In this document: positions 7,421 through 39,928 of the stretch, piece after piece
How the letters are laid out: each line of letters begins with the position of its first letter
How positions within the stretch are numbered: the first letter of the stretch is position 1
Notes under the pieces: model-generated
Told to the model about the DNA's origin: nothing
The model's input: only the letters and a program-made list of their open reading frames with translations
Database searches by the model: none
Origin: a virus
Lineage: Duplodnaviria; Heunggongvirae; Uroviricota; Caudoviricetes
Reading direction: 5' to 3' (one strand)
Length of the DNA: 39,964 nt
IMG/VR virus record: IMGVR_UViG_2711768042_000003
Translations under genes and position numbers: made by a program

Positions 7421-9978
7421 CGTCCACCTCCGGAGAACAGGCCACCATCACGCATCTGTGTCTGAATTTCATCACGGGCACCCTTGCGGGCCATGTCATA
7501 CACTGCCTTCATCATCTGTGGACCTGGCAGACCATTCGTACCGTCGTTCTGAATCACCACGTGATTGTTCTGATTAAAATTAATGCCTTCAGCCCGCCGC
7601 ATCTGCGCCGGACTTCCGGCACCGCCCACATAACCACCTTCCGCATAGCCCCGCATCAGGCGGTACAGGTTGCCGACACCAATCCGGCTGGTTGCCTCCT
7701 TCGTGAAGACAAATTCACCACGGTGAACAATCCCCGCTGGCTCATATTTGCCGCCGGTTCCCGTAAATCCCCCGGTCGCAAAACGGAATTTCGCCGCAGC
7801 GGCCTGAATGGCTGTACCGCCTGACGCGGATGCTCCACCACTGGCAGCACCGCCAATGGCGCTGCCGATACTCCCGACAATCCCCACCATTGCCTGCTTA
7901 AGCAGAATTTCTGTCATCATGGACAGCACGGAACGGGTGAAGCTGCGCCAGTTCTGCTCACTGCCGGTCAGCATCGCCGCCATATTCTGTGCAATACCAT
8001 CAAAGGTCTGCGTGGCTGCACTTTTAACCTGCGACATACTGTCCGTGGCGCTCTCTTCCCACTCACTCCAGCCGGACTTCAGGCCTGCCATCCAGCTCCC
8101 GCGAAGCTGGTCTTCAGCCGCCCAGGTCTTTTTCTGCTCTGACATGACGTTATTCAGCGCCAGCGGATTATCGCCATACTGTTCCTTCAGGCGCTGTTCC
8201 GTGGCTTCCCGTTCTGCCTGCCGGTCAGTCAGCCCCCGGCTTTTCGCATCAATGGCGGCCCGTTTTGCCCGTTGCTGCTGTGCGAATTTATCCGCCTGCT
8301 GCGCCAGCGCGTTCAGGCGCTCCTGATACGTAACCTTGTCGCCAAGTGCAGCCAGCTGGCGTTTGTACTCCAGCGTCTCATCTTTATGCGCCAGCAGGGA
8401 TTTCTCCTGTGCAGACAGCTGGCGACGTTGCGCCGCCTCCTCCAGTACCGCGAACTGACTCTCCGCCTTCCACAAATCCCGGCGCTGCTGGCTGATTTTC
8501 TCATTCGCTCCGGCATGCTTCTCCAGCGTCCGGAGTTCTGCCTGAAGCGTCAGCAGGGCAGCATGAGCACTGTCTTCCTGACGATCGCCCGCAGACACCT
8601 TCACGCCGGACTGTTTCGGCTTTTTCAGCGTCGCTTCATAATCCTTTTTCGCCGCCGCCATCAGCGTGTTGTAATCCGCCTGCAGGATTTTCCCGTCTTT
8701 CAGTGCCTTGTTCAGTTCTTCCTGACGGGCGGTATATTTCTCCAGCGGCGTCTGCAGCCGTTCGTAAGCCTTCTGCGCCTCTTCGGTATATTTCAGCCGT
8801 GACGCTTCGGTATCGCTCTGCTGCTGCGCATTTTTGTCCTGTTGAGTCTGCTGCTCAGCCTTCTTTCGGGCGGCTTCAAGCGCAAGACGGGCCTTTTCAC
8901 GATCATCCCAGTAACGCGCCCGCGCTTCATCGTTAACAAAATAATCATCCTTGCGCAGATTCCAGATGTCGTCTGCTTTCTTAAACGCAGCCTCTGCCTT
9001 AATCAGCATCTCCTGCGCGGTATCAGGACGACCAATATCCAGCACCGCATCCCACATGGATTTGAATGCCCGCGCTGTCCTGTCTGCCCAGGTCTCCAGC
9101 GTGCCCATGTTCTCTTTCAGGCGGCGGGTCTGGTCATCAAACCCTTTCGTTGCGGCTTCGTTCGCCGCCTGCAATGCCCCGGCTTCATCGCCGGAACGCT
9201 GCAACTGAGCAACATACGCAATCTGCTCCGCCGTCACGTTATGGAACTGGCGCGCCATCGCCGTCAGCCCCGACGTCGGGTCAGTGGTCAGCTTCCCGAA
9301 GGCTTCAGCGACCTTGTCCACCTCCACGCCGGATGCAGAGGAGAAACGCGCCACACTCTGGCTGATGGACGCAATCTGAGCCTCACCGCTTACCCCCGCC
9401 TTAACCAGTGCACTGAGTGACTCGCTGGTCTGGTTAAACGTCAGCCCTGCCGCCTGCCCGGCTCTGGACAGGACCAGCATACGATCTGCCGTCAGACCTG
9501 ACTGATGACCGGAAAGGACCAGCGTTTTGTTGAAATCGGACAGGGTTGAGTTACCCTGATACCAGGCATACGCCAGCGCACCGGTCGCCACCGCCAGCGA
9601 GGTGGCCCCGACCATCGGCAGGGTGATCGCACCGGCAAGCCCCCGGAACATGGGGATCATCCCGCCGAAGGAGTCCTTAACCTGACCACCCTGTTGCAGC
9701 AGGATCAGCCACGGGCTTTGCCCGCCTGCAAGCTGCGTGGCCACGTCAGTGAACTGTGCAGGAAGCATACGCATGGCGGCTTTATACTGCCCGACGGAAA
9801 TCCCCGCTTTCTGTGCAGCCAGCGCCTGCCGGTTCATTGACTGTTCAACGACTGCCGCTGTTTTTTTCGCATCACTTTCCGTACCGGAAAAATGACGCCT
9901 GACTCTGGCCATCTGCTCGTCAAATCTGGCTGCATCCAGACTTAAATCAACGACCAGATCGCCTACCGGTTCAGCCAT
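7417..9978 (-). CDS. H: tail tape measure protein H
   Basis: 853 aa, same length as lambda H; coiled-coil centre, Gly-rich C-terminus. Confidence 0.95.
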   Translation of the reverse strand: MAEPVGDLVVDLSLDAARFDEQMARVRRHFSGTESDAKKTAAVVEQSMNRQALAAQKAGISVGQYKAAMRMLPAQFTDVATQLAGGQSPWLILLQQGGQVKDSFGGMIPMFRGLAGAITLPMVGATSLAVATGALAYAWYQGNSTLSDFNKTLVLSGHQSGLTADRMLVLSRAGQAAGLTFNQTSESLSALVKAGVSGEAQIASISQSVARFSSASGVEVDKVAEAFGKLTTDPTSGLTAMARQFHNVTAEQIAYVAQLQRSGDEAGALQAANEAATKGFDDQTRRLKENMGTLETWADRTARAFKSMWDAVLDIGRPDTAQEMLIKAEAAFKKADDIWNLRKDDYFVNDEARARYWDDREKARLALEAARKKAEQQTQQDKNAQQQSDTEASRLKYTEEAQKAYERLQTPLEKYTARQEELNKALKDGKILQADYNTLMAAAKKDYEATLKKPKQSGVKVSAGDRQEDSAHAALLTLQAELRTLEKHAGANEKISQQRRDLWKAESQFAVLEEAAQRRQLSAQEKSLLAHKDETLEYKRQLAALGDKVTYQERLNALAQQADKFAQQQRAKRAAIDAKSRGLTDRQAEREATEQRLKEQYGDNPLALNNVMSEQKKTWAAEDQLRGSWMAGLKSGWSEWEESATDSMSQVKSAATQTFDGIAQNMAAMLTGSEQNWRSFTRSVLSMMTEILLKQAMVGIVGSIGSAIGGAASGGASASGGTAIQAAAAKFRFATGGFTGTGGKYEPAGIVHRGEFVFTKEATSRIGVGNLYRLMRGYAEGGYVGGAGSPAQMRRAEGINFNQNNHVVIQNDGTNGLPGPQMMKAVYDMARKGARDEIQTQMRDGGLFSGGGR

Positions 9979-21541: not shown

Positions 21542-21710
21542 CTTCCACCCTCGCACAGGACTGGCGAGCATGAGGGACAAACCCGCGAATCATTAGCGCG
21601 GTAAAAACCCGGTGTGCATCGTTTTTGATTATTTCCGCACACTCGCGCAGAGGAGTTCCCCGTCGGGCTACGGTCATGGTTAATGCGGAAATACGGCGAC
21701 GATGCAGCGC
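21542..21710. repeat. copy 2 of the duplicated ~170 bp element
   Basis: Direct repeat of 20591-20760. Confidence 0.75.
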
Positions 21711-25264: not shown

Positions 25265-25411
25265 ATAGTTAGTGGGTTATTGCCCCTCAATGACACGAAC
25301 TGTAACTCTGCCAAACGAACACATCCAGTGTTATTTTTCACTTTTTAGTGAAATTTTTAATTTGCGCTTTTTTCTTGTTTTGGTGTATTTTATGGCTATG
25401 GAGGCTATAAT

Positions 25412-25723
25412 ATGTTTAACGTGATAACCCACCCTGCAGCACTGGATGAACTGCTTGAACTACCAGATGATTTGCGAGGTCGCATGACCAGATTAATTGA
25501 GCGACTGGAGAAGGAAGGCAACAAACTGAAGATGCCCCATAGCCGTGTAATAGGTGGAGGGCTTTTTGAACTACGAGTAGGGGATAAAAACATCGCAAGA
25601 ACGCTGTACGCCTACGCGACTGGTAACGAAATTTATCTATTGCATGCATTTGTAAAAAAGACACAGAAAACACCGGTGAAGGCTATCGAAATCGCCAGAA
25701 CTCGCCTGAAGGAGATGAACTGA
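25412..25723 (+). CDS. RelE/ParE-superfamily toxin, Gp49/HigB-like
   Basis: 103 aa; GGAGG RBS; toxin-first order with ATGA overlap onto an XRE antitoxin. Confidence 0.75.
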   Translation: MFNVITHPAALDELLELPDDLRGRMTRLIERLEKEGNKLKMPHSRVIGGGLFELRVGDKNIARTLYAYATGNEIYLLHAFVKKTQKTPVKAIEIARTRLKEMN

Positions 25724-26010
25724 TGAAAGCGAAAGGCATCCCGTTTAACGAAGTAAAAGAAAAACTTCTCAACACTCCAGAAGCCATCAAAGGATATGAA
25801 GAGGCCGATAAAGAGCTGGAGATGGTCGAAATGTTATACGAAATGAGGGAAAGAGCAGGTTTAACGAAGTCAGCTCTGGCTGAACGAATGGGATTGCGCC
25901 CGTCAGCTATCAGCCGCCTGGAAAGCAATCCTTTAGGGGCAAGCATGAAAACTTTATCAAAATATGCCCAAGCATGCGGTGCAACGATTAATATTAATGC
26001 CGTCTATTGA
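25723..26010 (+). CDS. HTH XRE-family antitoxin (HigA-like)
   Basis: 95 aa with XRE-type HTH (LTKSALAERMGLRPSAISRLE). Confidence 0.75.
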   Translation: MKAKGIPFNEVKEKLLNTPEAIKGYEEADKELEMVEMLYEMRERAGLTKSALAERMGLRPSAISRLESNPLGASMKTLSKYAQACGATININAVY

Positions 26011-26053
26011 TTAGACCCTTTTCGCTACCCCGTCCAGAAGGGCGGGGTGTGTA

Positions 26054-26272
26054 TCAATGATGCAAACACTCAACAGCAATAACTTGTTGGCAATTCTGAG
26101 CAATCTCCCGCGACATACTAACAAGTCGTGAAATCTCGCCAAGATGCAAGCTGGCTTCTGGAGAAGCCAGAGCAACGCTAACCAGATCTAAAACGGCGTC
26201 GATGTCTTTTAGGTTTGATCCGAGTTCTTCAAGAGTTGATACAGGTGCTTCAGTCATTGAATCTAATACCAT
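26054..26272 (-). CDS. hypothetical small protein behind a LexA-box-like site
   Basis: 72-aa ORF, start 23 bp from the CTGT-N8-ACAG site. Confidence 0.5.
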   Translation of the reverse strand: MVLDSMTEAPVSTLEELGSNLKDIDAVLDLVSVALASPEASLHLGEISRLVSMSREIAQNCQQVIAVECLHH

Positions 26273-26294
26273 TTAATTAAAAAAGGTTATTTGA

Positions 26295-26312
26295 TACTGT
26301 ATAAAATTACAG
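26295..26312. promoter_or_regulatory. LexA-box-like site TACTGTATAAAATTACAG
   Basis: CTGT-N8-ACAG with AT-rich spacer, matching the SOS box consensus. Confidence 0.5.
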
Positions 26313-26514
26313 GGTAAAACTCAAATTTTATAGCCAACTTTCAATGGATTAACTGGTTAAATATCTTTGTAGTCCGATACTTATGTTCCCTTCCTACGCC
26401 TCGCCCAACCACTTTCAAAAGCCCATCACCACCATCAGAAAAGCTCTTTTCGCTCCGTTTTCGTATCATTTCAAAAAGCAATGCCTTTTTGTCCATTTAT
26501 CCCTCCGTGACCAG

Positions 26515-26841
26515 TCACACTTTGAGCGCAAGTTTCAGCCTCGTGGTTGTAAGGTGGCATGAGCCTTCACCATCAAAAATGCATTCTGAAACAGGCATTT
26601 TTTGACCACATCGCGGACAAGTAGTAGATAGCTGTTTCTGCAACTCCTTATAGTTTTTCCTGATCAGCAGTCCGATGACTTCGTTCTCTGAATATGGAAC
26701 TCGCCCTGGTCTACGCAATACACAAATTTCCCCCAACATACGTAACTCGTCAGGTTCCAGAATCCAGTCACGTCTTGATGTTCCTTCCTTCTTCAACCGT
26801 TCCCTGCGTCTTCTTTGCCGTTCTGCCGGTGTCAGCGCCAT
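26515..26841 (-). CDS. hypothetical protein with Arg-rich N-terminus and Cys cluster
   Basis: 108 aa; ERQRRRRERLKK at the N-terminus; CPRCG...C...C motif. Confidence 0.55.
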   Translation of the reverse strand: MALTPAERQRRRRERLKKEGTSRRDWILEPDELRMLGEICVLRRPGRVPYSENEVIGLLIRKNYKELQKQLSTTCPRCGQKMPVSECIFDGEGSCHLTTTRLKLALKV

Positions 26842-26856
26842 AAATCCTCCTAAAAA

Positions 26857-27447
26857 TTACTTAACCCAATTAACTACACCGCCAGCGGCCACAACCGCTT
26901 TTTCACAGTCACGCTCATATCTCAAAGGTTGAAATACACCATCAATAAAATATTTATCTCCACCACATGCTGCTGGAAGTGAAACAGAAAACTGAATACG
27001 ACCATCATCTGGCATTTGCTCACTACAGCTTATCCAACCATCCGGAGTTACCGGAGAGTTGCCAGACAGCTTGTTCAACTTGTAAGTCTGGCTTACAGGT
27101 TTGACACCGTGAAGCATGGTGGCGCGGCAGGCGTTCCAGCCTTCATCAAAACCGACTATGCCATTATTTAAAGTCGGACGAGCATCTGGCACCACCGGCA
27201 CTGGCTTGGCTATATATAGCGGCTGAACATACCAGCCCTTTGATAACCAACTGTCAGCAATGTTTTTACTCCTGGTTATTGCTGGAATACCTAAGCCATT
27301 GTCTGAATGTAGCCATGCCACCGGCTCCTCTTCCAGCGATGCCAGTGCGATTTCATAAGCTCGGCGCTCAATATTGTCTCGAACGTCCAGGCTACCGATT
27401 CGCTCTTTGATTTCTTTAATCAGTTCTTTGTCGGTAAACGTGATCAT
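26857..27447 (-). CDS. hypothetical phage protein
   Basis: Start MITFTDKEL overlaps the upstream stop as TAATG. Confidence 0.55.
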   Translation of the reverse strand: MITFTDKELIKEIKERIGSLDVRDNIERRAYEIALASLEEEPVAWLHSDNGLGIPAITRSKNIADSWLSKGWYVQPLYIAKPVPVVPDARPTLNNGIVGFDEGWNACRATMLHGVKPVSQTYKLNKLSGNSPVTPDGWISCSEQMPDDGRIQFSVSLPAACGGDKYFIDGVFQPLRYERDCEKAVVAAGGVVNWVK

Positions 27448-28025
27448 TATGCTCCAGCCTCCGGTGCTTTCGGCATTACTGCCCAATGAGTGATATTGAC
27501 GTTTTCAAGATCCCCGACCTGAAATGTCCACTGCCAGTCTCCGGTTTCTTTTTGTCCCCAGGTGTACCAGAGAGAACGCCAGCCAATAAGCCAGCCTTCT
27601 CCGTTAGCATCGAATAACAAAACACTTTCATTTGCAGGTGGCAGTTCAACTGACACTGGTGTTACTTTGTTTCCCTGTTCTACAATTCGCTTTCTTGCAG
27701 CTTCCAGCTCAATAGACAATTTTTCCAACTGCTCTTTATGCTTTTTGTATTCCTGATATGCGTGCCAGGACTGTCCTTTGCGCACGCTTTCAGTAATATC
27801 AGCAACCTGCTCTGGAGTTAGCGTAGTCAGTTGCTGGGCTGGAAAAATCATTACTTGTCCGGAATCCCAGTCAAAACCAGCCTGAATTGACTGAACATCA
27901 ACTGATGGTGTTGAACCAATGCTACCTGGTGAATGAACAACAATCGTTACATTCATATCGCAACGCTGGCTGTGTTTGTTGGACAAGATACGATTCACCA
28001 ACTCAGAAAATTTGGAAAATTTCAT
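27447..28025 (-). CDS. DUF551-like phage protein
   Basis: Trp-rich C-terminal domain ending ITHWAVMP. Confidence 0.6.
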   Translation of the reverse strand: MKFSKFSELVNRILSNKHSQRCDMNVTIVVHSPGSIGSTPSVDVQSIQAGFDWDSGQVMIFPAQQLTTLTPEQVADITESVRKGQSWHAYQEYKKHKEQLEKLSIELEAARKRIVEQGNKVTPVSVELPPANESVLLFDANGEGWLIGWRSLWYTWGQKETGDWQWTFQVGDLENVNITHWAVMPKAPEAGA

Positions 28026-30803: not shown

Positions 30804-31400
30804 ATGAAAACACGAGGCGAACGACTGAAAGCACGCCGTTTAGAGATGAAGCTGACGTTGCGAGAAGTTGCTGAGGCTGTCGATATCTCTATTGCAGGCG
30901 TCCAAAACTTAGAACGTGGCGACGTAATGCCGTCACTGGAGATAGGTATTGCCCTGGCTAAATGCTTACGCAAGCCAGTGCATTGGGTGCTGTATGGGAC
31001 AGAATATGACCCTGATCGCATTCCTGTTATTGGCACAACTGAAAGTGGACCTGATGAAGAGTGGAAGCCAGGACAGGTTCCAAATACTGAGCGATTCCTG
31101 CCATTCATCAGCCAGCGCAATACTGTTTATGCGTTAACTATCAGCAATCTGGCGCAGGGAAACTATCAGCCAGGCGATTTTCTCCTGGTCGATTCTGCGC
31201 TGGAACTGGTTCCCGGCGAGGATGTTCTGGTTCGTGATACTGCAGGAAATATCACCATCCAGCGCCTGGCCCGTTTTGATGATGAAAATTACTATCTGGA
31301 CGGAACAAATTCACAACGCGCCATCTTCAGGAAAAGCGATCTTGAATTTGTTCACCAAATAGTCGGAACGATCAAATCATTCATGGTTGAGGGTAGATGA
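30804..31400 (+). CDS. CI/LexA-like prophage repressor (HTH plus S24-like C-terminal domain)
   Basis: N-terminal XRE HTH; C-terminal LexA-like fold; Gln where the catalytic Lys is expected (ITIQRL). Confidence 0.85.
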   Translation: MKTRGERLKARRLEMKLTLREVAEAVDISIAGVQNLERGDVMPSLEIGIALAKCLRKPVHWVLYGTEYDPDRIPVIGTTESGPDEEWKPGQVPNTERFLPFISQRNTVYALTISNLAQGNYQPGDFLLVDSALELVPGEDVLVRDTAGNITIQRLARFDDENYYLDGTNSQRAIFRKSDLEFVHQIVGTIKSFMVEGR

Positions 31401-36970: not shown

Positions 36971-37083
36971 TTGACGTGTGCGTCGTTTTGGAGGTAAAGT
37001 CACCTCGCTGCGGTAAATCCCGCAGTCGGGACTTCGCAATCCTGGCAAAACGAAGCGCACAACACGCGCCAGCGTGTTTTTTT
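36971..37083 (+). ncRNA. candidate small regulatory RNA (c4/CI-like) with promoter and terminator
   Basis: Possible -35 TTGACG, 18 bp, -10 TAAAGT; stem-loop 37008-37025; terminator ACACGC-GCCA-GCGTGT plus U-run at 37062-37083; no long ORF. Confidence 0.35.
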
Positions 37084-37249
37084 GTGTGTATAGACCTGCG
37101 CATATCCGAATTATGGTGGCTCAGGTGGGGCTGACTTCGGTCGGGCCGGTTTCTTCGTTTACCGGTATTGCGAACCCCGCCTGGGCTACCACCAATAAAG
37201 AGATTCGCAACTCTGGTGGTAGCACGACCAATAAAACGGAGTGCATACC

Positions 37250-37414
37250 ATGTTCAAATTCAAATTTGCGGCAGTCGTTCGCACAGACAAAAAGTCCCAC
37301 ATTCATCATCTTTCCACTATCGCGTCATCTGAACGGGAAGCTCGTCGCCAGTTCGCCAGCCGGTTTGTCCTGGTATTGTCTGCCCGTATTCCGGTGCGCG
37401 AGGTGGCTGCATGA
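37250..37414 (+). CDS. small ORF (54 aa), first of three translationally coupled ORFs
   Basis: GGAG RBS; sequence MFKFKFAAVVRTDKK; stop overlaps the next start as ATGA. Confidence 0.45.
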   Translation: MFKFKFAAVVRTDKKSHIHHLSTIASSEREARRQFASRFVLVLSARIPVREVAA

Positions 37415-37644
37415 ATCAGGTAAAAATGAACACTGTTGGCCTGCTGGAATCGTTGGATGAACGTCTGGCTCAGGTCTATGCGCTCGTATCATCAGCCCAT
37501 CGGACAGTCTCCAGTTGTGAGGCGTCGATTTACCTCTCAGAGGCTGGAAAACTTCTGCAGATTGCGTGTGAGTTAACGCATGAAGCACAGGGATATTCTG
37601 CGTCTCTCTCGTCGCACTTGCTGCGCGATAAGGAGGCTGAATGA
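37411..37644 (+). CDS. hypothetical protein (77 aa)
   Basis: ATGA overlaps at both ends. Confidence 0.5.
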   Translation: MNQVKMNTVGLLESLDERLAQVYALVSSAHRTVSSCEASIYLSEAGKLLQIACELTHEAQGYSASLSSHLLRDKEAE

Positions 37645-37805
37645 GCGCGTTAGCAGTCTTTTCCTTTCAGGAAGAGCATCAGGTTCGTGTAGTGATGATC
37701 AACGGCGAACCGTGGTTTGTTGCATCTGATGTGTGTATGGCGGCGGGTATTGATTCTACGGCTATCAGAAAGTTGGATGAGGACGAAAAGGGGCAGGCGA
37801 GGTAG
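37641..37805 (+). CDS. short Bro-N-like ORF (antirepressor N-domain fragment)
   Basis: AAGGAGG RBS; HQVRVVMINGEPWFVASDVCMAAG resembles the start of Bro-N/antirepressor domains but the ORF is only 54 aa. Confidence 0.45.
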   Translation: MSALAVFSFQEEHQVRVVMINGEPWFVASDVCMAAGIDSTAIRKLDEDEKGQAR

Positions 37806-37815
37806 ACCACACAAC

Positions 37816-37839
37816 AAGGCACCGATAATTCGGTGCCTT
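37816..37839. terminator. hairpin between convergent operons
   Basis: Stem AAGGCACCG/CGGTGCCTT with loop ATAATT; weak U-tract. Confidence 0.35.
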
Positions 37840-37850
37840 TACCGTATGCT

Positions 37851-39764
37851 TTATCCGAAATATGTCAGCCATGCTAACTGCATTGCTGATATAGGGCTGT
37901 TTGCACTGCCGGACCAAGCATAATTCTGGCCATTATAATGAAATTCAACAACGTATGATCCATCACCAATATTTCTCACAGGCTTAAATACCGGCTTAGA
38001 TACAGGTGAAGAAGGCGCGGGCGGTTGCTGTTCTTCTACGCTCTCTTCCTCTTCCTCTTCCTCTTCCTCTTCCTCTATCTCTATCTCAATTTCGTCGTCA
38101 TCCAGATCGTCATCCTCTGATAATTCATCCGTCTGTTCAGGTATTGCTTCCAGCTCTTCTTCGTCAGGCATAACGATTTCTGGAGAATCTATTTTCAGCT
38201 GCCATTGTCCATTTTCGCCAACAAATTGCCCCAGAGCATCAGCAGCAAATTCTAGGTATCGACTAATCATTGTAGGGCTAAATTTGAATGCTCTTAGAGT
38301 GCTGTTCGTGATTTTTATAGAGGGGTCCTGCTCTACCAGCTGCTTAACTGTGTTATGCAGACGAACTCCGGCATCTCCTCTGGCGAATCCTGGCATTTCG
38401 TCATCAAGCTGCTGCAATGCTTCCAGCCTGGTATTTTCGTTTCCAGTATTTGGCCTCCATGTCTTTGAGAAGTTGGCCAGCTTGAATTGCTTATAGTGTA
38501 ATTGAGTGTTTTCATCGTCATGGCCTAAAATTTCCATAAAGAAAACATCCTCATCTACGTTTTTCCAACGAGGATCTACGCGGAAAAACATTTCATACGC
38601 AATACGGGCATAAATAGCACGACTATCTTTATAAACACGGCGGTCATCTTTGAAAAATGATTTAACCCACGGGTTAAAAGCCTTTGCTAATATGGCATTA
38701 ATCCGTCCGTTTTCAGAGCGTGTGTCGTTATCTCCATAACCTTTAACGACATCATCAAAATCAGATGCTGCTGGGCATGAGCGAAGTACATTTATTAAAT
38801 AAACAAATGTTTTTGCTTCGCATAATGTATATATTTTTCTGGTTATATCATCAGAAGTTCTTTTTTTTGCTTGGCCTAAAAAATCAACGGTATACTTACC
38901 AGAAACAGTAAATGTACCTTGATACATAATCTCAATCATTCGTCTTCCTGACAATGCAGCAAGTGCAAATGCCAAAGGAGCCATACCTGAACGAGTGTTT
39001 AGATTATTTAATGTAGCAGGGCTATTTATAATATCGTAAATAGCTTGCATATATTTGGGGTAATCAATGACCACCACGTTACGTTTCTTATTGTGCAGAA
39101 CGTCCGCCCATCGTTGCTGGATAGATGCGCGTTCGGCAGGGCTTAGTTGAAGATGATAGAGAATCTCATGGTTAACTTTTAGCTGATTCAACTCCTCAAG
39201 TAAGGCAGATCCTTGCTGTAGTAATTTATATAAATAATCGCGCTTATCTTTCCAGTTATCGCTAGTTAAATCAGAAATGGCGAATTGCCACTCTTTATAT
39301 TTATTTGATAATTTTAATAACTTATTATGATTTTTGTTATCGCCAATTCTGATATTAGATAAATCTTCTGATAGAGGGAGAATTAATTTTAATTTTGCCT
39401 GTAAAGCTGACATTCTCTGGCGAATATCGGCAGCAGGTAGAGAAAGCCATGATAATAGCTCCTCATTATATAAAGGATACTTTTCAGATAGGCGATGTAT
39501 ATTTTTTTCAAAGCTATGATGAAGTTTATCATCAAACCGTTTTCTGGCCCTGCTCATATAGGCATTGAATGTGTTCGCTGTAATTCTTTTTTCTAATCCT
39601 TTACCCCTAAACTTTCGCTTGTCATTAAATAATGCATTTTTAAATTTTAATGCAACAGCCTTTATTTTTTTTGTTTTCTCCCCTTGAGGACGGTCAGAGT
39701 TATCTATTGACTCAACATCGCTAACAAGTGAGTTTATTAATTCACCGATTTTTACTTTGCTCAT
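37851..39764 (-). CDS. telN: protelomerase (telomere resolvase)
   Basis: 637 aa; N-terminus MSKVKIGELIN and long conserved blocks match N15 TelN as I recall it; AGGAGAGG RBS. Confidence 0.95.
   Translation of the reverse strand: MSKVKIGELINSLVSDVESIDNSDRPQGEKTKKIKAVALKFKNALFNDKRKFRGKGLEKRITANTFNAYMSRARKRFDDKLHHSFEKNIHRLSEKYPLYNEELLSWLSLPAADIRQRMSALQAKLKLILPLSEDLSNIRIGDNKNHNKLLKLSNKYKEWQFAISDLTSDNWKDKRDYLYKLLQQGSALLEELNQLKVNHEILYHLQLSPAERASIQQRWADVLHNKKRNVVVIDYPKYMQAIYDIINSPATLNNLNTRSGMAPLAFALAALSGRRMIEIMYQGTFTVSGKYTVDFLGQAKKRTSDDITRKIYTLCEAKTFVYLINVLRSCPAASDFDDVVKGYGDNDTRSENGRINAILAKAFNPWVKSFFKDDRRVYKDSRAIYARIAYEMFFRVDPRWKNVDEDVFFMEILGHDDENTQLHYKQFKLANFSKTWRPNTGNENTRLEALQQLDDEMPGFARGDAGVRLHNTVKQLVEQDPSIKITNSTLRAFKFSPTMISRYLEFAADALGQFVGENGQWQLKIDSPEIVMPDEEELEAIPEQTDELSEDDDLDDDEIEIEIEEEEEEEEEEESVEEQQPPAPSSPVSKPVFKPVRNIGDGSYVVEFHYNGQNYAWSGSANSPISAMQLAWLTYFG
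38045..38074. repeat. hexanucleotide repeat (CTTCCT)x5 inside telN
   Basis: Five perfect tandem units; encodes part of the poly-Glu linker on the minus strand. Confidence 0.8.
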
Positions 39765-39928
39765 CTTTCCTCTCCTGATTATCCGCTCGGATTATCGTAA
39801 CACAATTTGAGAATAAGATAACTAATAACGCGTTAACTTAGTCACAAATTAACATAACACAATAACGGATAATAAATAAAAACACAATATCGGAACATTA
39901 AAATTTGTTCCTTGACTTTGTTCTGAAA

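What the first reader, a model, noticed from the sequence alone, without database searches (positions are those of the whole stretch)
26054..26312. LexA-box-like site directly upstream of a 72-aa gene: candidate SOS-controlled antirepressor
TACTGTATAAAATTACAG (26295-26312) fits CTGT-N8-ACAG with an AT-rich spacer and sits 23 bp upstream of the start of the small minus-strand ORF 26054-26272. The CI-like repressor here appears non-cleavable (separate finding), so induction may instead run through a LexA-repressed antirepressor. This small acidic protein is a candidate.
Basis: inference. Interest (0 to 1): 0.6.

Follow-up and report, generated by a model that had tools for sequence, protein, structure and literature searches.

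The report
SOS-controlled antirepressor of N15-like phage-plasmid
A small gene with a binding site for the bacterial DNA-damage repressor LexA in its promoter is the counterpart of the known N15 phage "antC" switch, which wakes a dormant plasmid-phage after DNA damage; it is real, but ordinary for this phage group.

Summary
TACTGTATAAAATTACAGGG (26295-26314) is the only strong LexA box in the window: 20.2 bits against 10.6 for the next best site, and 0 of 300 shuffles reach it. It lies upstream of a real small minus-strand gene.

The window is an E. coli N15-like linear phage-plasmid. The gene is the positional and sequence counterpart (57% identity) of an unannotated ORF in phage N15, which carries the same LexA box at the same distance. 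Among 31 distinct promoter sequences (window included) from relatives down to 46% protein identity, all keep the box 36-40 nt upstream of a conserved ATG.

That ATG is the second one in the ORF. The gene is therefore most likely 67 aa (26054-26257), not 72 aa.

The protein is a predicted acidic helical hairpin. At profile level (hhalign 91.6%, E 8e-7) it is homologous to N15 AntA, an established antirepressor of the CB repressor.

The window's CI-like repressor is 78% identical to N15 CB, which has been shown experimentally not to self-cleave. It has Asn and Gln where the catalytic Ser and Lys should be.

The mechanism was published for N15 (AntC, Mardanov & Ravin 2007), so this is a new, unannotated member of a known kind.

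The parts
26295..26314 (.). LexA (SOS) box TACTGTATAAAATTACAGGG, a near-palindrome with core CTGT-N8-ACAG at 26297-26312
   Evidence: It scores 20.2 bits, the next best site in the window scores 10.6, and 0 of 300 shuffles reach it. It is conserved 36-40 nt upstream of the conserved ATG in 30 distinct related loci. CTGT and TATACAGTA are invariant in 31 distinct upstream sequences.
26296..26324 (-). Inferred sigma-70 promoter: -35 TTGAGT (26319-26324), 17-nt spacer, -10 TACAGT (26296-26301). The LexA box covers the spacer and the -10.
   Evidence: Coordinates were checked. TTG of the -35 and TACAGT are invariant across relatives. The match is only 8 of 12 to consensus, so the consensus scan did not call it. 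This part is inferred, not shown.
26054..26257 (-). antC-like gene, 67 aa from the conserved start (an in-frame upstream ATG at 26272 would give 72 aa). The product is an acidic helical-hairpin protein and the presumed antirepressor of CB.
   Evidence: ORF. Conserved start. It is 57% identical to the N15 ORF at 39604-39807. It matches phrog_6301 at 3.6e-36 and phrog_10889 'anti-repressor' at 1.4e-6. hhalign against the AntA profile gives 91.6%, E 8.3e-7. The AF2 model is a helical hairpin with pLDDT 87.8. pI is 4.5.
26027..26048 (.). GC-rich hairpin between the convergent antC-like gene and the antitoxin gene. It may act as a terminator.
   Evidence: Fold energy is -22.4 kcal/mol on the + strand (z -3.5) and weaker on the - strand (z -1.25). 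No T-run follows, so the terminator scan did not call it. Its role is uncertain.
30804..31400 (+). CB (CI-like) prophage repressor, the presumed target. It has an HTH domain plus a degenerate S24-like C-terminal domain without the catalytic dyad.
   Evidence: It is 78% identical to N15 CB. The Peptidase_S24 match is below Pfam's cut-off. UmuD Ser60 aligns with Asn and Lys97 with Gln, in 'ITIQRL'. Lys is absent at that position in all 29 distinct CB/AntC pairs. There is no Ala-Gly or Cys-Gly in the linker.
37411..37623 (+). antA-like gene, a 70-aa remote paralogue of the antC-like gene. It lies in the immA operon behind a C4-type antisense RNA.
   Evidence: It matches phrog_6301 at 1.1e-36 and phrog_10889 at 4e-18, and is 63% identical to N15 gp31. 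phiKO2 Gp28 is annotated 'similar to antirepressor encoded by N15 AntA'. The C4 RNA is at 37109-37196.

Best explanation
The window is an N15-like linear phage-plasmid of E. coli. The gene at 26054-26257 (minus strand) is its antC: a small antirepressor whose own promoter is shut off by host LexA.

In an undamaged cell, LexA sits on the box at 26295-26314. The box covers the spacer and the -10 hexamer of the promoter, so the gene is silent. The CB repressor (30804-31400) then keeps cro/Q, and hence the lytic genes, off.

DNA damage activates RecA, and LexA cleaves itself. The promoter opens and the 67-aa acidic helical-hairpin protein is made. It binds CB and takes it off its operators without proteolysis. 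CB cannot cleave itself because its S24-like domain lacks the Ser/Lys dyad. Lytic growth follows.

Shown here by computation:
- the strength, position and deep conservation of the box;
- orthology to the N15 LexA-box ORF;
- homology to the AntA antirepressor;
- loss of the catalytic residues in CB.

Taken from the literature on N15: LexA control of antC, AntC acting against CB, and the non-proteolytic nature of CB.

Inferred: that the N15 ORF at 39604/39619-39831 is antC; the exact promoter hexamers; and that this diverged protein (57% identity to the N15 one) still binds this CB.
For: LexA box:
- 20.2 bits against 10.6 for the next best site, and 0 of 300 shuffles reach it.
- The PWM was validated on the Gifsy-1 dinI-gfoA operon.

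Conservation:
- All 30 distinct related loci have a box of 17.8-26.2 bits ending 36-40 nt before the conserved ATG, with protein identity down to 46%.
- CTGT, TATACAGTA and the TTG of the -35 are invariant while the flanks vary.
- More distant homologues at 33-34% identity to the window protein, at the same genome position, also carry the box (L063, L065; also L064, whose identity was not computed).

Orthology:
- The gene order is gene 46 - gene 47 - ORF - gene 48/49 toxin-antitoxin - 50 - 51 - methylase - lysis, as in N15.
- tblastn to N15 39604-39807 gives 57% identity, E 2e-17.
- The N15 genome has only two strong LexA boxes. One precedes the umuD-like gene 26, the other precedes this ORF.

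Literature:
- AntC is a LexA-controlled antirepressor (PMC3121763; PMC11652158).

Family:
- The protein and N15 gp31 (AntA) hit the same PHROGs.
- The profile-profile match is 91.6%, E 8.3e-7 over 56 columns.
- gp31 is identified as AntA by the phiKO2 annotation. AntA is used experimentally as the N15 antirepressor (PMC2847241).

Target:
- CB is 78% identical to N15 CB.
- The catalytic Ser and Lys are replaced by Asn and Gln.
- The N15 repressor was shown to be non-proteolytic (PMC10432266).

Coding and structure: substitutions are mostly at third positions, and the model is a confident two-helix hairpin.
Against: - There is no experimental datum for this element.
- The primary paper (Mardanov & Ravin 2007) could not be read. 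That the N15 ORF is antC rests on elimination and on my recollection.
- The promoter hexamers are weak (8 of 12) and were not called by the consensus scan.
- There is no canonical terminator downstream.
- Pairwise BLASTP between the antC-like and antA-like proteins of the window is not significant. The link exists only at profile level.
- The protein is only 57% identical to the N15 one, whereas CB is 78% identical, so retention of binding is inferred.
- One distant branch (L068/L069) has the gene but no LexA box, so LexA control is not universal in the family.
- The gene runs in the same direction as the upstream early genes, so it may also be expressed by read-through.
Confidence: 0.85

Rival explanations
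1. The gene is LexA-regulated, but the protein has another SOS-time role. It could modulate RecA or LexA (as DinI or GIL01 gp7 do), inhibit cell division, or serve the neighbouring toxin-antitoxin pair, rather than inactivate CB.
For: No curated family (Pfam, NCBIfam) names a function. All database names are 'hypothetical protein'. The fold is a generic helical hairpin with no informative structural neighbour. The gene always lies next to a toxin-antitoxin module, which differs in family between relatives.
Against: It is homologous at profile level to AntA, a demonstrated antirepressor. It has no similarity to DinI or other SOS proteins. It co-occurs with a CB repressor lacking the catalytic Lys in all 29 distinct pairs. 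The literature states that N15 needs a LexA-controlled antirepressor, and apart from the umuD-like gene 26 this is the only LexA-box gene in N15.
Confidence: 0.08
2. The antC-like protein is an antirepressor, but in this element it is no longer matched to its CB. It would be a decayed or mismatched module, and induction would run through the antA paralogue or read-through instead.
For: The protein is only 57% identical to the N15 one, while CB is 78% identical. Neighbouring genes are decayed: the gp47 homologue has an internal deletion and antB is truncated. An element with an identical CB carries an AntC only 79% identical.
Against: The ORF is intact and its substitution pattern is that of a coding gene. 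25 columns are 90% or more conserved and 2 are invariant over 30 sequences. The LexA box and promoter are fully conserved. The exact protein occurs on at least 1000 contigs, which is not the picture of a decaying gene.
Confidence: 0.05
3. The LexA-like site is a chance or non-functional match, and the ORF is simply the last gene of the early operon.
For: CTGT-N8-ACAG alone is short: 8 of 100 shuffles of the window give two or more matches. No promoter was called by the generic scan.
Against: The full 20-mer score was never reached in 300 shuffles. The site is kept at a fixed distance in every one of 30 distinct relatives and in most distant ones, while the surrounding bases diverge.
Confidence: 0.02

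Closest known systems
AntC of linear plasmid-prophage N15 (Mardanov & Ravin 2007, J Bacteriol 189:6333)
   Same: Same kind of element: telN, repA, cB, cro and Q are 67-87% identical. Same genome position, same LexA box at the same distance, 57% protein identity, and the same non-cleavable CB-type repressor.
   Different: The protein has diverged more than its presumed target (57% against 78%). The N15 records do not annotate the ORF, so the equation with antC is inferred. Nothing has been tested for this element.
AntA of the N15 immA operon (icd-antA-antB, controlled by the CA/C4 antisense RNA; Ravin et al. 1999)
   Same: Same protein family at profile level (phrog_6301; hhalign 91.6%, E 8.3e-7). 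Similar size, about 70 aa. The loop motif S-x-E-A-S-[LI]-[HY] is shared. Both are described as acting against CB.
   Different: About 27% identity, and pairwise BLAST is not significant. The locus is different (next to telN) and so is the input: an antisense RNA rather than LexA. There is no LexA box there.
GfoA/GftA antirepressors of Salmonella Gifsy prophages (Lemire et al. 2011, PMC3121763)
   Same: Same logic: a small protein of about 70 aa, encoded outside the immunity region and directly repressed by LexA, inactivates a non-cleavable repressor by binding it.
   Different: There is no detectable sequence relationship (hhalign probability 0.3%; different PHROG). In Gifsy the gene is second in a dinI-antirepressor-irsA operon, whereas here it is monocistronic. 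The Gifsy repressors are short (about 150 aa), while CB keeps a degenerate S24-like domain.
Tum of coliphage 186 (Shearwin et al. 1998)
   Same: A LexA-controlled antirepressor that binds the repressor and prevents operator binding (PMC3121763).
   Different: Tum is 146 aa with a DinI-like C-terminal half. No DinI or other Pfam domain is found here. The phage type is different (P2-like).

Membership tests
N15 AntC-type LexA-controlled antirepressor locus | Sequence homology to the N15 LexA-box ORF (39604/39619-39831) | tested here: met
   tblastn gives 57% identity over 68 aa, E 2e-17, and BLASTP gives 8.9e-27. That the N15 ORF is antC is inferred, because the primary paper was not readable.
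N15 AntC-type LexA-controlled antirepressor locus | Same genome position: after genes 46/47, convergent with the gene 48/49 toxin-antitoxin pair, and upstream of genes 50-52 and the lysis genes | tested here: met
   The N15 annotation and pairwise identities of the flanking genes are 73-92%, apart from the decayed gp47.
N15 AntC-type LexA-controlled antirepressor locus | LexA box overlapping the gene's own promoter | tested here: met
   The box scores 20.2 bits. It covers the spacer and the -10 of the conserved TTGAGT-17-TACAGT. It is conserved in 30 of 30 distinct loci. Promoter activity itself was not tested.
N15 AntC-type LexA-controlled antirepressor locus | Partner repressor of CB type that does not self-cleave | tested here: met
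   By sequence only: 78% identity to N15 CB, Ser replaced by Asn and Lys by Gln, the same in all 29 pairs, and no Ala-Gly in the linker. N15 CB is experimentally non-proteolytic (PMC10432266).
N15 AntC-type LexA-controlled antirepressor locus | LexA binds the site, and the transcript is induced by DNA damage in a RecA/LexA-dependent way | not testable with these tools
   This needs EMSA or a footprint, and qRT-PCR in lexA+ and lexA(Ind-) hosts.
N15 AntC-type LexA-controlled antirepressor locus | The protein binds CB and relieves repression, and is required for SOS induction | not testable with these tools
   This needs a pull-down or two-hybrid assay, a reporter assay and a deletion mutant.
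AntA/AntC small antirepressor protein family (phrog_6301 / phrog_10889) | Significant profile match to the family that contains N15 AntA (gp31) | tested here: met
   phrog_6301 at 3.6e-36 and phrog_10889 'anti-repressor' at 1.4e-6. gp31 and the window's antA-like protein hit the same two PHROGs. hhalign A2 against A3 gives 91.6%, E 8.3e-7. gp31 is identified as AntA from the phiKO2 annotation.
Gifsy GfoA/GftA antirepressors | Sequence homology to GfoA (the ORF after dinI in Gifsy-1) | tested here: not met
   hhalign probability is 0.3%. GfoA falls in phrog_4847, a different PHROG. The two work alike, but this protein is not a member.
Tum (186) / DinI-fused antirepressors | DinI-like domain or Tum homology | tested here: not met
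   No Pfam or NCBIfam family matches, DinI included. The size is 67 aa against 146 aa.
Ant/BRO-KilAC antirepressors (P22 Ant, P1 Ant, N15 AntB) | BRO-N / Ant / KilA-C domains | tested here: not met
   There is no Pfam hit. N15 AntB hits the Ant PHROGs, but the 67-aa protein does not.

The most novel reading that the evidence does not exclude
N15-like phage-plasmids use one family of ~70-aa helical-hairpin antirepressors (AntA/AntC) as a common effector on the non-cleavable CB repressor, and connect paralogous copies to different sensors. These are LexA/SOS for antC, a C4-type antisense RNA for antA, and an unknown, LexA-independent input in the branch represented by L068/L069.

The antirepressor evolves faster than CB: 79% against 100% identity between the window and L087, and 57% against 78% against N15. 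Variants could therefore set which co-resident phage-plasmids are induced together.

I found no statement of the AntA-AntC homology in the papers I could read. It may be in the unread primary paper.
Probability: 0.4. Interest if true: 0.4.

Novelty: new member of a known kind. Interest (0 to 1): 0.25.

Why it matters
The finding explains how this widespread E. coli phage-plasmid is likely induced by DNA damage, including by antibiotics that trigger the SOS response. The exact protein is on at least 1000 contigs, and 11 of 5426 complete E. coli genomes carry the locus, always on plasmids.

It also exposes an annotation gap. The gene is missing from the N15 reference records. It is 'hypothetical protein' everywhere else, and its PHROG is labelled 'unknown function', although the function was published for N15 in 2007. 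Transferring the name antC or 'LexA-controlled antirepressor' to this family, and noting its homology with AntA, would be useful. It is not a new mechanism.

Tried and rejected
- Pfam and NCBIfam scans of the 72-aa protein gave nothing.
- The generic promoter and terminator scan called nothing at the locus, so the promoter was defined from conservation instead.
- The primary N15 antC paper is not held, under either its PMC id or its DOI. Other papers mention antC without coordinates.
- Database names for the N15, phiKO2 and window proteins are all 'hypothetical' or 'GpNN'.
- I tested whether phrog_10889 'anti-repressor' is the Gifsy GfoA family. It is not, and GfoA is unrelated.
- tblastn at E up to 10 against phages found no relatives outside N15-like phages.
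- Foldseek searches of the AF2 model against PDB and BFVD gave only generic helical hairpins, with no match below E 0.1.
- AntC-CB co-variation (Spearman 0.93, Mantel p 5e-4) was rejected as evidence of co-evolution, because both genes share the genome's phylogeny.
- A fused-chain AF2 'complex' was considered and dropped. The tool returns no contacts or PAE and would refuse non-window sequences.
- The second CTGT-N8-ACAG (7911-7926) was dismissed as chance.

Full report
**What is there.** The stated sequence TACTGTATAAAATTACAG is at 26295-26312, and a minus-strand ORF runs from 26272 to 26054.

- The bare pattern CTGT-N8-ACAG occurs twice in the window, against 0.48 expected. That alone is weak evidence.
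- I built a 20-position weight matrix from 24 E. coli SOS boxes. The list was recalled from Lewis 1994 and Fernandez de Henestrosa 2000, so it rests on memory and is not a curated file.
- The 20-mer at 26295-26314 scores 20.2 bits, about the median of the genuine boxes.
- The next best site in the 40-kb window scores 10.6, and none of 300 shuffles reached 20.2.
- As an independent control, the matrix ranks the LexA box in front of the Gifsy-1 dinI-gfoA operon first in that genome. That operon is experimentally LexA-controlled (PMC3121763).

**What the element is.** The window matches E. coli plasmid pEND_Eco 123-2 (NZ_CP126957.1) at 100% identity over the two stretches I searched (25400-27500 and 26040-26345). 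It is collinear with phage N15.

- Shared genes are the protelomerase, RepA, CB, Cro, Q, genes 46-51, the methylase and the lysis genes, at 67-92% protein identity.
- It is therefore an N15-like linear phage-plasmid.
- The locus is on plasmids only, in 11 of 5426 complete E. coli genomes.

**The gene.** tblastn finds the ORF in only 13 phage records, all N15-like: N15, phiKO2, the Klebsiella telomere phages, an Enterobacter Ravinvirus, and two E. coli phages.

- In N15 the match (57% identity) falls in an unannotated gap between gene 47 and gene 48.
- That gap carries CCTGTGTTTATATACAGTA at the same distance from the ORF.
- The whole N15 genome has just two strong LexA boxes: this one, and one in front of the umuD-like gene 26.
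- Published statements say that N15 induction is started by antC. Its product acts against the prophage repressor, it is a locus separate from immA and immB, and it is LexA-controlled (PMC4488713; PMC3121763; PMC11652158).
- By elimination, and by my recollection of Mardanov & Ravin 2007, the N15 ORF is antC. I could not read that paper, so this step is inferred.

**Start codon.**

- In PhiR46_1 the first ATG is followed two codons later by a stop.
- In phiKO2 it is CTG, and in the Klebsiella group it is absent.
- The second ATG is present in every relative.
- RefSeq annotates the 67-aa form.
- The gene is therefore most likely 26054-26257, and the box ends 37 nt before it.
- Substitutions between homologues are concentrated at third codon positions, for example 21, 11 and 37 differences at positions 1, 2 and 3 between the window and N15.

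**Conservation of the site.** I collected 52 viral contigs, 2 genome contigs and 4 phage records.

- These give 30 distinct locus types, with protein identity from 97% down to 46%.
- Every one has a LexA box of 17.8-26.2 bits ending 36-40 nt upstream of the conserved ATG.
- In the alignment of 31 distinct upstream sequences, CTGT, TATACAGTA and a TTG 17+3 nt upstream are invariant, while the bases around them differ between clades.
- This fits a promoter TTGAGT-17-TACAGT (-35 at 26319-26324, -10 at 26296-26301). The LexA box lies over the spacer and the -10.
- That overlap also explains why the ACAGTA half-site never varies.
- The hexamers match consensus at only 8 of 12 positions, so the generic scan did not call them. 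The promoter is an inference from conservation.

**More distant relatives.** An exhaustive profile search of 1.84 billion proteins found only 10 cluster representatives.

- I looked up four of the six distant ones (P0076, P0077, P0080, P0081).
- All four sit at the same place in N15-like elements.
- Three of the four locus types carry a strong LexA box.
- One type (L068/L069) has none.

**The protein.** It is acidic (pI 4.5) and has no Pfam or NCBIfam family.

- It matches phrog_6301 ('unknown function', 3.6e-36) and, weakly, phrog_10889 ('anti-repressor', 1.4e-6).
- AlphaFold2 with a 30-sequence alignment gives a confident two-helix hairpin: helices 4-30 and 39-66, pLDDT 87.8, with the nearly invariant ASPEASLH in the loop.
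- Structure searches return only generic hairpins.

**The paralogue.** The informative link came from elsewhere in the window.

- The 70-aa ORF at 37411-37623 is homologous to N15 gene 31. It hits the same two PHROGs, at 1.1e-36 and 4e-18.
- A profile-profile comparison of the two families gives 91.6% probability, E 8.3e-7, over 56 columns.
- Pairwise BLASTP between the two window proteins is not significant.
- The phiKO2 record annotates the gene 31 homologue as 'similar to antirepressor encoded by Bacteriophage N15 AntA', with icd upstream and the 'auxiliary anti-repressor AntB' downstream.
- N15 gp32 and the window's 37238-37411 product (the C-terminal part of the gp32 homologue) both match the Icd-like NCBIfam model.
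- AntA is used experimentally as the N15 antirepressor (PMC2847241).
- The LexA-box gene therefore belongs to a protein family with a demonstrated antirepressor member. This does not depend on the antC coordinate question.

**The target.** The CI-like protein at 30804-31400 is 78% identical to N15 CB.

- Its C-terminal half resembles Peptidase_S24 only weakly (21.3 bits, below the cut-off).
- In the alignment to UmuD, Ser60 aligns with Asn and Lys97 with Gln, in the motif ITIQRL. N15 CB has the same residues.
- All 29 distinct CB/AntC pairs lack Lys at that position: Gln in 26, and Phe, Arg or Leu in the distant ones.
- There is no Ala-Gly or Cys-Gly in the linker.
- Silpe et al. 2023 showed directly that the N15 repressor is not proteolysed on SOS induction (PMC10432266).

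**Mechanism.**

1. LexA occupies the box and blocks the antC-like promoter.
2. After DNA damage, LexA self-cleavage opens the promoter.
3. The 67-aa hairpin protein accumulates, binds CB and removes it from its operators.
4. Cro and Q, and then the lytic genes, are expressed.

The sequence-level predictions are met. LexA binding, damage induction and CB binding are taken from the N15 literature and were not tested for this element. I put this explanation at 0.85.

**Rivals.**

- A different SOS-time function for the protein: 0.08.
- A mismatched or decayed module: 0.05.
- A chance site: 0.02.

**Comparison with known systems.** The locus works like Gifsy GfoA/GftA and 186 Tum, which are LexA-controlled antirepressors of non-cleavable repressors.

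- It is not a member of those families. GfoA is unrelated.
- No DinI, Tum or BRO/Ant domain is present.
- It is a member of the N15 AntC locus type and of the AntA/AntC protein family.

**Novelty and interest.** The mechanism is published for the type phage of this group, so this is a new, unannotated member of a known kind.

- Its value is mainly in annotation. The gene is absent from the N15 records.
- It is called 'hypothetical' in every source I saw.
- The AntA-AntC homology, and the LexA-less branch, suggest one effector family wired to several inputs. That is the most novel reading left open.
- Interest: 0.25.

Noticed in passing
window 37007-37850: A complete N15-type immA (secondary immunity) module lies next to telN. 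It holds an isrK-like RNA (37007-37082, 52.8 bits), a C4 antisense RNA (37109-37196, 82.3 bits), an icd-like ORF (37238-37411) and antA-like (37411-37623). antB is cut to 52 codons by a stop (37641-37799), against 264 aa in N15. The 'auxiliary antirepressor' is therefore probably non-functional here.
   Followed up: partly
window 26341-26496 (-): The homologue of N15 gene 47 is a 51-aa remnant with an internal deletion of about 22 codons (38% identity over the alignment). RefSeq does not annotate it in the identical plasmid.
   Followed up: partly
window 25412-26010 (+); L063 6267-7089: A Gp49/RelE-type toxin plus HTH antitoxin pair (N15 genes 49/48, Tad-Ata type) is convergent with the antC-like gene. 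In the distant relative L063 the same slot holds a HicA/HicB pair instead. The position seems to be a toxin-antitoxin 'cassette' site.
   Followed up: partly
L068 and L069, 5431-6213: A distant antC-like gene (P0081) in an N15-like element has no LexA box anywhere nearby (best site in the locus 9.6 bits). A divergent 106-aa gene with no Pfam match lies directly upstream. This may be a different, SOS-independent input.
   Followed up: partly
L087 versus window: An element whose CB repressor is 100% identical to the window's carries an AntC-like protein only 79% identical. Across all pairs the antirepressor diverges faster than its presumed target.
   Followed up: partly
L006 (N15) 39604-39831 and 21658-21677: The N15 reference and GenBank records do not annotate the LexA-box ORF at all. 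The only other strong LexA box in N15 precedes the umuD-like gene 26, which has no homologue in this window.
   Followed up: yes
L008/L009, L033/L034, L045/L048, L044/L053, L047/L052: Several viral contigs carry two inverted copies of the locus on one contig. The source plasmid record is 68 kb and 'circular', against about 46 kb for N15. These are probably assembly artefacts caused by hairpin telomeres.
   Followed up: no
L060: A Klebsiella-type N15-like element (51% identity to the antC-like protein) is on a 52-kb contig of a genome labelled Limoniibacter endophyticus, which I take to be an alphaproteobacterium (lineage not checked). This is either contamination or an unexpected host.
   Followed up: no
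window 7911-7926: The second CTGT-N8-ACAG in the window (CTGTCATCATGGACAG) has a GC-rich spacer and lies inside a tail gene. It does not score as a LexA box and is a chance match.
   Followed up: yes
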